From an uncultured Actinomycetota bacterium (GTDB taxonomy: Bacteria > Actinomycetota > Actinomycetes > Propionibacteriales > Nocardioidaceae): a DNA stretch of 64,000 bases. The DNA is taken from the NCBI GenBank assembly GCA_963831375.1, contig CAWHPY010000026.1, positions 362,627 through 426,626 of the forward strand. The letters run 5' to 3'. The translations under genes and the position numbers were made by a program. The notes under the pieces were generated by a model. That model did no database searches. It saw only the letters and a list, made by a program, of their open reading frames with translations, and had not been told where the DNA came from. Below are positions 3,346 to 63,231 of the stretch, piece after piece (within the stretch, counting starts at the first letter, position 1; every line of letters begins with the position of its first letter).

Positions 3346-3411
3346 GTTGAGATCCGCCTCATTTTCTGTTGAAACTCGCCTCGTTCGGTGTTGAGTGGCG
3401 TCTCATTCCGG
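3346..3411. repeat. Three tandem degenerate 22-bp repeats (left-arm orientation)
   Basis: GTTGAGATCCGCCTCATTTTCT / GTTGAAACTCGCCTCGTTCGGT / GTTGAGTGGCGTCTCATTCCGG at 3346, 3368, 3390; same family as loci at 33275, 51312, 63011. Confidence 0.85.
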
Positions 3412-32186: not shown

Positions 32187-32303
32187 GTGAACTCCTGCGG
32201 TCTCGTAGGGACACCCGTCCTTCGGTGCGTAGATCCTGGCTCAACCTACCGTGTCGCACACCCCTCCCGGAACACGGTCCCGGCATCGGGTTCAATGTGC
32301 ACC

Positions 32304-33279
32304 ATGACTGCTGTGCCTTCCCCCGGCCACCCTCCCGCGAATGCGACCCTGGCCGACCTCGGCGAGTTCGGCCTGGTCGATGCCCTCAAGGGCCGGTTCC
32401 CGCAGGGCGAGCACGTCCTGCTGGGCCCGGGCGATGACGCCGCGGTGGTCGCCGTACCCGATGGCCGGGTGCTGGTCTCGACCGACCTGCTCGTCGACAC
32501 CCGGCACTTCCGGCGCGACTGGGCCTCGGCGACCGACATCGGCCACAAGGCGGCCGCACAGAACCTGTCCGACATCAACGCGATGGGCGGCCGCGCCACT
32601 GCGCTCACCGTGGGCCTGGCCGCGCCCCCTGACCTGCCCGTGTCCTGGGCCCTCGAGCTCGCGGACGGCATCGCGGAGGAGGCGGCCCTCGTGGACGCGT
32701 CGGTGGTGGGGGGTGACGTCACCCGCGCCGACGCGGTGATGATCGCGATCACCGTGCTCGGGCCGGTGCGACGGGGAGCCGGTACGACGGACGGGTGCTC
32801 GTCCCGGGGACCTGGTGGCGCTCGCCGGACGACAGGGGTGGGCGGCGGCCGGCCTCGCCGTACTCGCTCGGGGCTTTCGCTCGCCGCGGGCACTCGTCGA
32901 GGCGCACCGCCGGCCGGAGCCGCCCTACGCGGCGGGAGCTCAGGCGGCCGGTCTGGGGGCGACCGCGATGATCGACCTCTCCGACGGCCTGCTCGGCGAC
33001 GTCGCGCACATCGCGGAGGACTCCGGGGTGGCGATCGACATCCACACCGGGAGCTTCGAGGTGGCCGAGCCGCTGCGCGCGGTGGGCGCCGCGCTCGGGG
33101 CGGACCCGATGCAGTTCATCCTGACCGGGGGAGACGACCACGCCCTCGTGGCGACGTTCCCGGCCGGCACGTCGCTGCCGGACGAGTGGCGGCAGATCGG
33201 CGAGGTCGGTGAGGGGGCGGGTGTCACCGTCGACGGCGCGGAGTACGACGGCCCCGCCGGCCACCAGCACTTCCGTTGA
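32304..33279 (+). CDS. thiL: Thiamine-monophosphate kinase, frameshifted in this sequence
   Basis: LGEFGLV, GPGDDAAV, STDLLV, NLSDINAMG, VVGGD; extra C at 32763-32764; AMIDLSDGL, GGDDHAL. Confidence 0.93.
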
Positions 33280-33339
33280 GTCGCGCCTCATTTCCGGTTC
33301 AGATCCGTGAGATTCGTGCTGAGTCGCGCGGGGTTCGGA
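33275..33339. repeat. Three degenerate 21-22-bp repeats (left arm)
   Basis: GTTGAGTCGCGCCTCATTTCCG / GTTCAGATCCGTGAGATTCGT / GCTGAGTCGCGCGGGGTTCGGA; first unit contains the thiL stop codon. Confidence 0.75.
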
Positions 33340-33346
33340 GACGCGG

Positions 33347-33601
33347 TCAGTAACGCGGTGTCAGCCGGCGGTGCGGCTGACAGGCCATCACCAGGGCGAC
33401 GACCCAGCCGACCACGGTCCAGCCGAGCAGGAAGGTGAGCCACCCGATGAACGCGGAGTTGGACTTACCCCGCGTCGCGGCGATCGCCCACGGAAGCATG
33501 TAGCCGCCGGTCACGACGGTGAGGATCCACCCCACGACGGCCTGACCCGTCTTAGGCGACTGGTCGGTGAGGACATATACGGGAAGCGGCTGCTGGGACA
33601 T
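33347..33601 (-). CDS. Superinfection immunity protein family (T4 Imm-like) small membrane protein
   Basis: YMLPWAIAATRGKSN...LLGWTVVGWVVALVMA matches the Y.LP.IIA..R...N...LLGWT..GW..AL family pattern; TAGGAT -10 six nt before ATG. Confidence 0.85.
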   Translation of the reverse strand: MSQQPLPVYVLTDQSPKTGQAVVGWILTVVTGGYMLPWAIAATRGKSNSAFIGWLTFLLGWTVVGWVVALVMACQPHRRLTPRY

Positions 33602-33666
33602 GTCCCGATCCTAGGCCGATCCGGCGTACGACGGGCGGGCCGCGGCGACTCCCGCTCGGCCTGCGG

Positions 33667-33732
33667 CGGAAATCTCGCGCGTTTCAACAGAGAAAGAGGC
33701 GGGTCTCAACACTAATGAGGCGCGATCTCAAC
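33667..33732. repeat. Three degenerate 22-bp repeats (right arm)
   Basis: CGGAAATCTCGCGCGTTTCAAC / AGAGAAAGAGGCGGGTCTCAAC / ACTAATGAGGCGCGATCTCAAC. Confidence 0.85.
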
Positions 33733-33742
33733 GGGAAGCAGA

Positions 33743-33766
33743 AGGGCCGCCCCGAAGGACGGCCCT
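33743..33766 (-). terminator. Hairpin downstream of rpmB
   Basis: Minus strand AGGGCCGTCC-TTCG-GGGCGGCCCT followed by TCTGCTT. Confidence 0.7.
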
Positions 33767-33797
33767 GTGCTGATCATGCTGTGCGGATGACGCTGGG

Positions 33798-33983
33798 TCA
33801 GCGGGTGACCTTGCCGGCCTTCAGGCAGCCGGTGCAGACGTTCACGCGCTTCGGGGCGCCGTTGACCGTCGCGCGCACGCGCTGGATGTTCGGGTTGAAG
33901 CGACGCTTCGTAATCTTGCGCGACCACGGTCGGTTGTTGCCGAAGCCCGGCCCCTTGGCGCAGATGTCACAGACGGCAGCCAC
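33798..33983 (-). CDS. rpmB: 50S ribosomal protein L28 (zinc-binding type)
   Basis: MAAVCDICAKGPGFGNN...TKRRFNPNIQRV...VCTGCLKAGKV. Confidence 0.97.
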   Translation of the reverse strand: MAAVCDICAKGPGFGNNRPWSRKITKRRFNPNIQRVRATVNGAPKRVNVCTGCLKAGKVTR

Positions 33984-34155
33984 CGTGAACTCCTGGAAAG
34001 CTAGATTGGTTTCGATCTGGGGTGCCCGAGTCAGCCCGGGCAACCGCACAAGAGTATCTGATGGGGCTGGGTCCACGCGAATCGAGCGTCACGCACTAAC
34101 CTGACATCTCCGTTGGACGTGACTGGCACCACCTCGAGGAGGGTCGACCGCGCAG

Positions 34156-63010: not shown

Positions 63011-63231
63011 GTTGAAACGCGCCTCGTTCGCCGATGAGACGCGTCTTGTTCGGCACAGATGATCGTTCTGTCGGATGGGGAGGCCTGCTGGTCTCCCCAT
63101 TCGGCATTTCCGGCGGTACGTCGGACCCGCGACCTTCGTGACGCACCGAACGAGTCGGGTTTCAACGCGAGCGAGGCGCGACTCAACAGCGAACGAGGCG
63201 GGTCTCAACAGCGAACGAGGCGGGTTTCAAC
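63011..63231. mobile_element. 221-bp MITE-like element: two left-arm and four right-arm 22-bp repeats around a 90-bp core
   Basis: Left GTTGAAACGCGCCTCGTTCGCC / GATGAGACGCGTCTTGTTCGGC. Right units end in TCAAC at 63166, 63187, 63209, 63231. Core hairpin ATGGGGAG/CTCCCCAT. Confidence 0.7.

What the first reader, a model, noticed from the sequence alone, without database searches (positions are those of the whole stretch)
33275..33732. Superinfection-immunity-type gene packaged between inverted repeat arrays: candidate minimal mobile defence cassette
Seen: a 458-bp unit between thiL and the rpmB terminator. Left arm has three units, the first containing the thiL stop. Right arm has three units in the opposite orientation, and the outermost units mirror each other (GTTGAGTCGCGCCTCAT versus ATGAGGCGCGATCTCAAC). 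Inside is one 84-aa gene with its own TAGGAT -10 six nt before ATG and the Imm-family pattern. No phage genes, integrase or transposase are nearby, and no target duplication was seen. Established: T4 Imm is a membrane protein that blocks DNA injection. Inference: the repeat family can capture and move self-expressed cargo, here a possible anti-phage gene, which would be an integron-like or MITE-like route for defence genes. This is the best candidate for an undescribed system in the window.
Basis: partly seen in the sequence, partly recalled or inferred. Interest (0 to 1): 0.85.

Follow-up and report, generated by a model that had tools for sequence, protein, structure and literature searches.

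The report
Immunity-type gene bracketed by host repeats
A small phage-immunity-type membrane protein gene really does sit between two mirror-image repeat arrays, but it has stayed at this one spot through related species while the arrays around it change, so there is no sign that the arrays carry the gene around.

Summary
Observation confirmed. Window 33275-33732 holds an 84-aa, two-helix membrane protein gene (33347-33601, minus strand). It matches Pfam PF14373 Imm_superinfect (E 5e-14) and PHROG 1039 (E 8e-16), and is 45-47% identical to T4-like phage Imm. Three 22-nt units lie on each side, in inverted orientation.

The units belong to a genome-wide family (consensus GTTGAGATCCGCCTCGTTCGCT). 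It has about 400 units in 174 arrays and 39 compact foldbacks, with no target duplication. Arrays start at or just after stop codons.

The "mobile defence cassette" reading is not supported.
- The gene is single-copy and lies only at thiL-rpmB in a clade of at least seven sampled lineages.
- It diverges in step with the adjacent thiL.
- Its leaderless promoter is conserved in 7 of 7 orthologues.
- The arms differ: GTTGAG-type in three lineages, an unrelated GCCGAGCCGTCA family in two, a relic in one, none in one.
- Other paired arms in this genome bracket ordinary genes. The three tested (MFS, GNAT, TetR) sit at the same loci in array-free relatives.
- 56 homologues elsewhere are in other contexts; a crude repeat screen found one of them with other repeats nearby.

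Still unexplained: arms recur as pairs around this gene. The scan has noted tandem-repeat-armed foldbacks after stop codons in other phyla; those notes are unchecked here.

The parts
32815..33279 (+). C-terminal reading frame of thiL (AIR synthase-type thiamine-monophosphate kinase). The stop TGA at 33277-33279 lies inside the first repeat unit.
   Evidence: ORF list. tblastn with the G017 thiL. Pfam AIRS on the orthologous gene in L104. The native end ...TTCCGCTGAG is present in relatives without arms.
33275..33339 (+). Left arm: three tandem 22-nt units, U1 33275-33296, U2 33297-33318, U3 33318-33339. The GTTGAG end faces thiL.
   Evidence: Matrix scores 29.6, 14.5 and 6.8 bits. Family census.
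33347..33601 (-). 84-aa two-transmembrane Imm_superinfect (PF14373) protein gene.
   Evidence: Pfam 5.4e-14. PHROG 1039 'immunity to superinfection' 8.3e-16. 45-47% identity to T4-like phage imm. Two hydrophobic helices and dN/dS 0.13-0.31.
33608..33613 (-). -10 hexamer TAGGAT, 6 nt upstream of the ATG (leaderless-type promoter).
   Evidence: Read. A TANNNT hexamer exactly 6 nt before the ATG is present in all 7 orthologues.
33625..33636 (+). CGTACGACGGGC, one copy of a genome-wide over-represented 12-mer, in the -35 area of the imm promoter.
   Evidence: 88 copies against 1 in the control. Conserved at this place in G017, G018, L105 and L106. Absent in L104 and L107.
33667..33732 (-). Right arm: three tandem units in the opposite orientation, R3 33667-33688, R2 33689-33710, R1 33711-33732 (R1 has a 1-nt insertion). 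The GTTGAG end faces rpmB.
   Evidence: Scores 19.5 and 29.9 bits. Inverted repeats I1, I2 and I6.
33743..33766 (-). rpmB terminator hairpin (AGGGCCGCCC/GGACGGCCCT). It is outside the arms and is conserved in relatives with an empty site.
   Evidence: Inverted repeat I18. An equivalent hairpin is present in all thiL-rpmB spacers.
33798..33986 (-). rpmB (ribosomal protein L28).
   Evidence: ORF. 87-97% DNA identity across the genus. Pfam Ribosomal_L28 on the orthologue.

Best explanation
The locus is a one-gene accessory island. It is an Imm/PF14373-type two-helix inner-membrane protein gene with its own leaderless promoter.

The gene was acquired once, in the convergent spacer between thiL and the rpmB terminator, by the ancestor of a small clade of a Nocardioidaceae genus. 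It has been inherited vertically under purifying selection since then.

By analogy with T4 Imm, the protein probably hinders entry of phage DNA at the membrane. This step is inferred, not shown.

The two inverted arms are not a vehicle. They are copies of the host genome's own 22-nt tandem-unit repeats, which sit next to stop codons at more than 130 intergenic sites. These repeats often end up on both sides of single resident genes. They turn over faster than the gene they bracket: they are lost, rebuilt, or replaced by another unit family in sister lineages.

How the arms are laid down is unknown. There is no target duplication and no recognisable transposase.
For: Gene identity:
- PF14373 at 52.3 bits and PHROG 1039.
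- BLAST-level similarity to annotated phage imm genes.
- Two transmembrane helices and dN/dS 0.13-0.31.
- TANNNT 6 nt before the ATG in 7 of 7 orthologues.

Single acquisition and vertical descent:
- PF14373 is found in only 3 of 27 genus genomes, all at thiL-rpmB.
- These three form a clade in the rpmB-Dak2 tree, support 0.993.
- Four closer metagenomic homologues (77-87% identity) have the same context.
- imm distances rank like the adjacent thiL distances, apart from the G017-G018 pair.
- The other genus members aligned have a 70-140 bp empty spacer, apart from G019 (a gene-less foldback) and G004 (a 756-nt spacer that was not examined).

Arms are independent of the gene:
- The G000 unit family is abundant only in G000: 244 hits against 0-5 elsewhere.
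- G018 and L104 carry GCCGAGCCGTCA-family arms. That family has 49 copies in G018 and 0-1 in G000, G017 and G011.
- G017 keeps one relic unit; L107-L109 have none.
- G019 has a gene-less foldback at the same spacer.
- G000 and L106 arms are 65% identical, below the imm third-codon-position identity of 75%.

Arms bracket resident genes elsewhere:
- There are 11 wide (+,-) pairs.
- Their contents are TetR, GNAT, DUF427, DUF559, MFS and gene fragments.
- MFS, GNAT and TetR are syntenic in array-free relatives, and the arms appear as clean additions.

Of 58 homologue loci in other genomes, only the two relatives (G017, G018) are at thiL-rpmB. A crude exact-match screen found flanking inverted matches mostly under 14 nt, comparable with the direct-repeat control. 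L068, the one locus looked at closely, carries a different 38-nt repeat.
Against: - When arms are present around imm they are always on both sides, with similar unit numbers (3+3, 3+3, 4+4, 3+2, 1+1), and this holds for two unrelated unit families. Independent one-sided insertions do not easily explain that.
- Both arms here carry the uncommon inner-type unit (GAGATT). It is seen in about 17% of foldback arms but only 3% of solo arms.
- The outermost units share a 12-mer found only 4 times in the genome. So the two arms look like halves of one foldback.
- Relic GTTGAG units in G017 (left side) and G018 (right side) allow that arms were already present when the gene arrived.
- The centres of longer gene-less foldbacks often hold the same CGTACGACGG motif that sits beside the imm promoter.
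- The anti-phage function is untested, and PADLOC has no model that matches.
Confidence: 0.55

Rival explanations
1. Historical cassette. The imm gene entered the thiL-rpmB spacer once as the centre of a foldback element, or integrated into the centre of a foldback already there. The first reader's architecture would then be original, although the unit has not moved since and its arms have been remodelled.
For: - Paired, symmetric arms occur in 5 of 7 imm-bearing lineages.
- Both arms have inner-type units and share a rare outer variant.
- Relic GTTGAG units are present in G017 and G018.
- G019 shows that this spacer accepts a foldback.
- Foldback centres are variable and often carry the CGTACGACGG motif found next to imm.
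Against: - Arms of two unrelated families flank the same orthologous gene.
- Arms clearly were added around resident genes at three other loci.
- No second copy of the gene or unit exists anywhere.
- Gene conversion between close inverted repeats could explain the mirror similarity.
Confidence: 0.25
2. Active mobile defence cassette. Paired arms are the ends of an element that captures self-expressed genes and moves them between sites or genomes.
For: - The geometry resembles a composite transposon.
- (+,-) pairs at 200-2000 bp number 11, against 2, 5 and 2 for the other orientations.
- The imm family is horizontally mobile in general. One homologue lies next to an ORF that reads like a tyrosine integrase (judged by eye), and 26 Gordonia phage records match.
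Against: - No target duplication.
- No transposase enclosed by any pair.
- No RAYT-type (PF01797) match and no PF05635 match in the genome.
- The gene is single-copy and locus-fixed, and diverges in step with adjacent thiL.
- Enclosed genes elsewhere are syntenic residents.
- The imm homologues elsewhere are in other genomic contexts, and no GTTGAG-type arms were seen around them in a crude screen.
Confidence: 0.05
3. The arms are functional cis-elements, not selfish DNA. They would be helically phased binding arrays or transcription/translation barriers that the host keeps at gene ends, here insulating an acquired gene from read-through from thiL and rpmB.
For: - The 22-nt period is close to two helical turns.
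- Arrays start at or within 4 nt after the stop codon in 45 of 78 clear cases. The first unit's TGA serves as the stop in 25 cases, against 1 each for units 2 and 3.
- By my reading of the consensus, three units put TGA in all three frames when read from outside and leave all frames open when read from inside.
- Arms stay family-like while diverging faster than silent sites.
- Solo arms point away from a gene's 3' end 51 times against 17.
Against: - No binding protein is known.
- The family is missing from most of the genus, and G017 and L107 do without it.
- Some arms sit at operon junctions or face 5' ends.
Confidence: 0.15

Closest known systems
T4 Imm / Pfam PF14373 Imm_superinfect (PHROG 1039)
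   Same: Small (about 80 aa) two-helix membrane protein. The HMM match is above threshold, and identity to annotated T4-like phage imm genes is 45-47% over 53 residues.
   Different: It is chromosomal, in a housekeeping neighbourhood of an actinobacterium, with no prophage around it. Many actinobacterial relatives are fused to DUF2510 (PF10708), but this one is not. Exclusion activity is untested, and the gene is not in PADLOC.
REP / BIME / REPIN elements with RAYT transposases
   Same: Short extragenic repeats, species-specific in sequence, found as inverted doublets just downstream of genes. There is no target duplication. Presence varies between close relatives.
   Different: Each arm is a tandem array of 22-nt units rather than one palindrome. 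No Y1/RAYT gene (PF01797) was found in the 93%-complete genome. Arrays abut or contain the stop codon.
Tandem-unit foldbacks near stop codons
   Same: The published heptamer arrays lie mostly within about 50 bp of stop codons or upstream of ORFs (abstract read). The scan's earlier, unchecked notes add inverted arms of tandem units, variable centres, and some copies that enclose a small gene.
   Different: The unit here is 22 nt, not 7-9 nt, and is not G-quadruplex-like. The small gene those scan notes report in full-length copies (PF05635) is absent here. The enclosed genes are ordinary residents.
MIRU (mycobacterial interspersed repetitive units)
   Same: Actinobacterial tandem intergenic repeats whose ends overlap the stop or start codons of flanking genes, including operon junctions (from my own knowledge). 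Compare the MFS junction.
   Different: MIRU units are 40-100 bp, arranged as direct arrays only, with no inverted arms.
MITEs, composite transposons and integron cassettes
   Same: Inverted ends around a short segment, many copies, and polymorphic presence.
   Different: No target duplication. No parent element with a transposase. The gene has its own promoter and two arms rather than one attC. No integrase is nearby.

Membership tests
Imm_superinfect (PF14373) / T4 Imm | Match to the family HMM above the curated cut-off | tested here: met
   52.3 bits against a cut-off of 27.9, E 5.4e-14, profile positions 2-42 of 42. PHROG 1039, E 8.3e-16.
Imm_superinfect (PF14373) / T4 Imm | Small protein with two membrane-spanning helices | tested here: met
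   84 aa. Hydrophobic windows at about residues 21-41 and 49-76.
Imm_superinfect (PF14373) / T4 Imm | Direct sequence similarity to phage imm genes | tested here: met
   tblastn gave 107 phage records. Identity to annotated 'imm: immunity to superinfection' genes of T4-like phages is 45-47% over residues 27-79. 26 Gordonia phage records also match.
Imm_superinfect (PF14373) / T4 Imm | Blocks phage DNA entry | not testable with these tools
   Needs a plating or injection assay. No PADLOC model matches.
MITE / transposase-derived element | Target-site duplication flanking the element | tested here: not met
   No direct repeat of 3-9 nt at any offset from 0 to 13 in 39 compact foldbacks. None at this locus.
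MITE / transposase-derived element | A longer parent copy with the same ends that encodes a transposase | tested here: not met
   The 11 wide pairs enclose TetR, GNAT, DUF427, DUF559, MFS, a weak Fe-S-like ORF, methyltransferase and ATPase fragments, and imm. None is a transposase.
MITE / transposase-derived element | Many copies, with presence or absence varying between relatives | tested here: met
   About 400 units in G000 against 1-10 in the control. The family is abundant in only some genus members. Empty and filled thiL-rpmB sites both exist.
REP/REPIN-RAYT system | A cognate Y1 (RAYT) transposase gene in the genome | tested here: not met
   PF01797 has no match in G000 (93% complete). 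The control search found it in 6 of 14 known genomes.
REP/REPIN-RAYT system | Inverted doublets of an extragenic repeat | tested here: met
   39 compact (+,-) foldbacks, most often with a 4-7 nt centre. However, each arm is a tandem array.
Integron gene cassette | A promoterless ORF with a single attC, next to an integron integrase | tested here: not met
   The gene has its own conserved -10 hexamer and two arms. The neighbours are thiL, rpmB, Dak2, AsnC and DUF3515.
Tandem-unit foldbacks carrying a PF05635/IVS-type gene (earlier notes of this scan) | Inverted arms of short tandem units placed just after stop codons | tested here: met
   The unit length here is 22 nt instead of 7-9 nt.
Tandem-unit foldbacks carrying a PF05635/IVS-type gene (earlier notes of this scan) | Full-length copies enclose a PF05635-type small gene | tested here: not met
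   PF05635 has no match in G000.

The most novel reading that the evidence does not exclude
The 22-nt arrays may be the ends of an undescribed kind of element. It would lay itself down in pairs around single transcription units, without target duplication and with its outer ends locked onto stop codons. The imm unit would then be one such bracketed gene, either caught at the stage before mobilisation or originally delivered that way. Arms of two unrelated unit families recur as symmetric pairs around the same gene in different lineages, which is the observation that keeps this open.
Probability: 0.12. Interest if true: 0.8.

Novelty: new variant of a known kind. Interest (0 to 1): 0.38.

Why it matters
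As a defence-gene story it is modest: one more chromosomal Imm-family gene, fixed at one locus. That is useful mainly as a clean candidate for testing superinfection-exclusion proteins in actinobacteria.

The wider value lies in the repeats. I found no description of this family in two literature searches. Its helically phased 22-nt arrays hug stop codons, form foldbacks, bracket single genes and turn over faster than silent sites. It has no recognisable transposase.

Showing that such arms get placed around resident genes is a warning. "Gene between inverted repeats" should not be read as evidence of mobility.

Tried and rejected
- Target duplications at any offset: none.
- RAYT/IS200-type Y1 transposase: absent.
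- IS91 Y2 transposase: no hit, but the control also found nothing, so this is inconclusive.
- PF05635 IVS-protein gene: absent.
- Rfam on 33150-34150: nothing at E up to 1.
- Consensus promoter/terminator scan: nothing, as expected for a high-GC actinobacterium.
- PADLOC and NCBIfam: no match.
- Intramolecular replicative transposition as the origin of bracketing: rejected, because the MFS segment is colinear and not inverted in array-free G004.
- Treating G000 and L106 arms as simple neutrally decaying orthologues: not supported. They are 65% identical, no more alike than random family units at about 72%.
- The CGTACGACGGGC motif as part of the repeat element: rejected as a general rule. Only 17 of 147 copies lie within 500 bp of an array, and 75% lie in predicted genes.
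- Literature searches for Nocardioides or actinobacterial repeats of this kind found nothing relevant.
- Gene positions genome-wide come from my own crude GC3-based caller. It covers 84% of the genome, so context counts are approximate.
Full report
**What is there**

The window is G000:C26:362627-426626 of a 4.6-Mb, 69% G+C genome. The two genus members that carry organism titles are labelled Nocardioidaceae.

- three tandem 22-nt units on the plus strand (33275-33339);
- an 84-codon ORF on the minus strand (33347-33601);
- a 65-nt upstream region;
- three units on the minus strand (33667-33732).

Matrix scores are 29.6, 14.5 and 6.8 bits for the left units and 19.5 and 29.9 bits for two right units. 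The outermost right unit has a 1-nt insertion. It shares a perfect 12-nt inverted match with the outermost left unit.

**The gene**

The ORF matches Pfam PF14373 Imm_superinfect (E 5.4e-14, 52.3 bits, cut-off 27.9) and PHROG 1039 'immunity to superinfection' (E 8.3e-16). It aligns directly, at 45-47% identity over 53 residues, with annotated imm genes of T4-like phages. It also matches 26 Gordonia phage records.

It has two hydrophobic helices, a coding-type GC3 of 0.88, and dN/dS of 0.13-0.31 against two orthologues. On the minus strand, TAGGAT ends 6 nt before the ATG. A TANNNT hexamer at exactly that spacing is present in all seven orthologues I could read. That is the usual signature of an actinobacterial leaderless promoter (my own knowledge).

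PADLOC and NCBIfam have no model for it. That it excludes phages is an inference from the family.

**The repeat family**

The consensus unit is GTTGAGATCCGCCTCGTTCGCT. At matrix thresholds of 10-12 bits there are about 390-420 units, against 1-10 in the reversed genome. They form 174 arrays of 1-5 units (mode 3), with a period of 22 nt in 229 of 253 spacings.
- 39 are compact (+,-) foldbacks, most often with 4-7 nt between the arms. Others have centres of 14-170 nt.
- Eleven (+,-) pairs are 228-1557 nt apart. In the 200-2000 nt range the other orientations number 2, 5 and 2.
- There is no target duplication.
- The outer flank is C-rich, as in ...CCCC|GTTGAG.

For 78 arms with a clear incoming ORF, the stop codon is the TGA of the first GTTGAG in 25 cases. 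It is the TGA of the second or third unit in only 1 case each. It ends 2-4 nt before the array in 20 cases. So arrays are locked onto native stop codons. At thiL, arm-less relatives (G011, G017, G019, L104) already read ...TTCCGCTGAG at that position.

No Y1/RAYT transposase and no PF05635 gene were found in the genome. Rfam has nothing for the region.

**History of the gene**

PF14373 occurs in only 3 of 27 genomes of the genus, each time between thiL and rpmB. The three form a clade in a tree of the adjacent rpmB-Dak2 region, with support 0.993.

Of the 22 relatives' spacers I could align, 18 hold just 70-140 bp containing the rpmB terminator. The exceptions are:
- G017 and G018, which carry the gene;
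- G019, which has a gene-less foldback of its own unit variant, whose first unit again overlaps the thiL stop;
- G004, whose 756-nt spacer I did not examine.

A search of 5.8 billion proteins added four closer homologues (77-87% identity), all in the same rpmB-imm-thiL context.

Pairwise imm distances rank like distances of the adjacent thiL 3' end. From G000 the values (imm versus thiL) are:
- L106: 0.126 versus 0.112;
- L105: 0.173 versus 0.128;
- L104: 0.184 versus 0.135;
- G017 and G018: about 0.25 versus 0.18.

The one discordance is that G017 and G018 are closer in imm than in thiL. Of 58 loci found in other species' genomes, only those two relatives are at thiL-rpmB. This points to one acquisition followed by vertical descent.

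**History of the arms**

Around the same orthologous gene the arms differ.
- G000 and L106 have 3+3 GTTGAG-type units.
- L105 has 4+4 units of a GTTGAGACGCGCC variant, with extra unique spacers.
- G018 has 3+2 units and L104 has 1+1 units of an unrelated family, GCCGAGCCGTCANNTTTGG.
- G017 has one relic unit on the left only.
- L107-L109 have none.

The G000 variant is abundant only in G000: 244 hits against 0-5 elsewhere. The GCCGAG family has 49 copies in G018 and 41 in G019, and 0-1 in G000, G017 and G011. GTTGAG+16-nt tandems are frequent in only six of 27 genomes, each with its own variant.

G000 and L106 arms are 65% identical. That is below the 75% identity of imm third codon positions and no better than random family units at about 72%. 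The arms therefore turn over faster than the gene, and each follows the repeat repertoire of its own genome.

**Do paired arms carry cargo?**

The 11 wide pairs enclose:
- a TetR regulator;
- a GNAT acetyltransferase;
- a DUF427 protein;
- a DUF559/REase-like protein;
- a 471-aa ORF that reads like an MFS/NarK-type transporter (named by eye, not run through Pfam);
- a weak HesB-like ORF;
- a methyltransferase fragment;
- an ATPase N-terminal fragment;
- two gene-less segments;
- imm.

None of them is a transposase, and I found no enrichment for defence genes or small membrane genes.

For three of them I compared relatives.
- The MFS gene and its neighbours are colinear in array-free genomes. 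In G004 the MFS stop and the next gene's start are 4 nt apart. G000 has the 66-nt arm plus 12 nt inserted exactly there, and the right arm is a clean addition after a conserved upstream region.
- The GNAT gene sits at the same locus in array-free G003, G008, G013 and G014. It is missing in others. G017 retains only the last 7 nt of the right arm.
- The TetR gene is syntenic with its left neighbour in array-free genomes.

So arms are laid down around genes that were already there. Bracketing is not evidence of capture.

**What remains unexplained**

When arms are present around imm they are on both sides, with similar unit numbers. This holds for two unrelated unit families.

In G000 both arms contain the inner-type unit (..GYGAGATT..). 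That type is seen in about 17% of foldback arms but only 3% of solo arms. The outermost units also share a variant found 4 times in the genome. The two arms thus look like halves of one foldback.

Relic GTTGAG units in G017 and G018 allow that arms were present at or soon after the gene's arrival. Gene conversion between close inverted repeats, or a process that deposits arms in pairs, could explain this. I could not distinguish between them.

I therefore keep 25% on a historical 'gene in a foldback centre' and 5% on an active cassette.

**Comparison with known systems**

The gene is a member of the Imm_superinfect family. All sequence-level criteria are met, but the function is untested.

The arms resemble REP/REPIN doublets, but the genome lacks a RAYT. 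They resemble MITEs, but there is no duplication and no parent element. They also resemble MIRU, which overlaps stop and start codons but forms direct arrays only.

The nearest architecture is the tandem-unit foldbacks near stop codons. These are described for heptamer arrays in Xanthomonas and Nostoc (PMC4692102, abstract read). Earlier notes of this scan report them in several phyla. Here the unit is 22 nt, and the small gene those scan notes report in full-length copies is absent. Two literature searches found no description of such repeats in Nocardioides or Nocardioidaceae.

**Verdict**

The Imm assignment is confirmed at sequence level. The mobile-cassette interpretation is not supported.

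The finding is a vertically inherited one-gene island bracketed by the host's own fast-evolving, stop-codon-hugging repeat arrays. Interest is moderate and rests mainly on the repeats.

**Limits**
- Gene calls genome-wide come from a crude GC3-based caller.
- The relatives are mostly draft assemblies or MAGs.

Noticed in passing
window 33625-33636, and genome-wide in G000: The 12-mer CGTACGACGGGC (core of the palindrome CCGTCGTACGACGG) occurs 88 times against 1 in the reversed-genome control. 75% of copies lie in predicted genes, in all frames and on both strands, with no similarity in the flanks. It also recurs 1-3 times in the centres of longer foldbacks and upstream of several bracketed genes. 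A copy is present in a Propionibacteriales MAG (L068:1070-1093). Its meaning is unknown; an uptake-signal-like, Chi-like or operator role are guesses.
   Followed up: partly
window about 32761-32774: thiL is read in two frames. Residues 1-168 of the G017 orthologue align in one frame (32295-32774) and residues 159-330 align in the next frame (32761-33276). This is either a frameshift in this assembly or a pseudogene.
   Followed up: partly
G000 arrays in general, for example window 3346-3411 and 63011-63231: Because 22 = 3x7+1, three consensus units read from the GTTGAG end place TGA in all three reading frames. The reverse orientation is open in all three. Three units is also the commonest arm length (79 of 174). 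Single units found inside predicted genes are in the open orientation 22 times out of 26.
   Followed up: partly
G018 (L003, L008) and G019: There is a second, unrelated 22-nt tandem-unit family, GCCGAGCCGTCANNTTTGG. It has 49 copies in G018 and 41 in G019, also arranged as (+,-) pairs. In G018 it flanks imm and also forms a foldback just after the TetR orthologue (C60:968-1253).
   Followed up: partly
G000:C27:444279-444356 (L095): An arm plus a 12-nt G-rich tail sits exactly between the stop codon of the MFS gene and the start codon of the next gene in an operon. The tail reads GGGAGAGGG and ends 3 nt before that ATG, so it looks like a ribosome-binding site. In array-free G004 the two codons are 4 nt apart.
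   Followed up: partly
L039, L041, L045 and many proteins: Many actinobacterial Imm_superinfect homologues are fused to a DUF2510 (PF10708) domain at either end. In L039 (an Ilumatobacteraceae MAG) the gene lies next to an ORF that reads like a tyrosine integrase (judged by eye).
   Followed up: no
L068:1440-1805: In a Propionibacteriales MAG the imm homologue is flanked by a different 38-nt repeat. One copy lies upstream and an inverted pair lies downstream.
   Followed up: no
G000:C6:32578-32955 (L098 2379-2756): The small gene to the right of the TetR bracket lies about 2-3 kb further away in array-free G003 and G004, but is adjacent in G000, G019, G009 and G018. So a rearrangement breakpoint coincides with an arm.
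   Followed up: no
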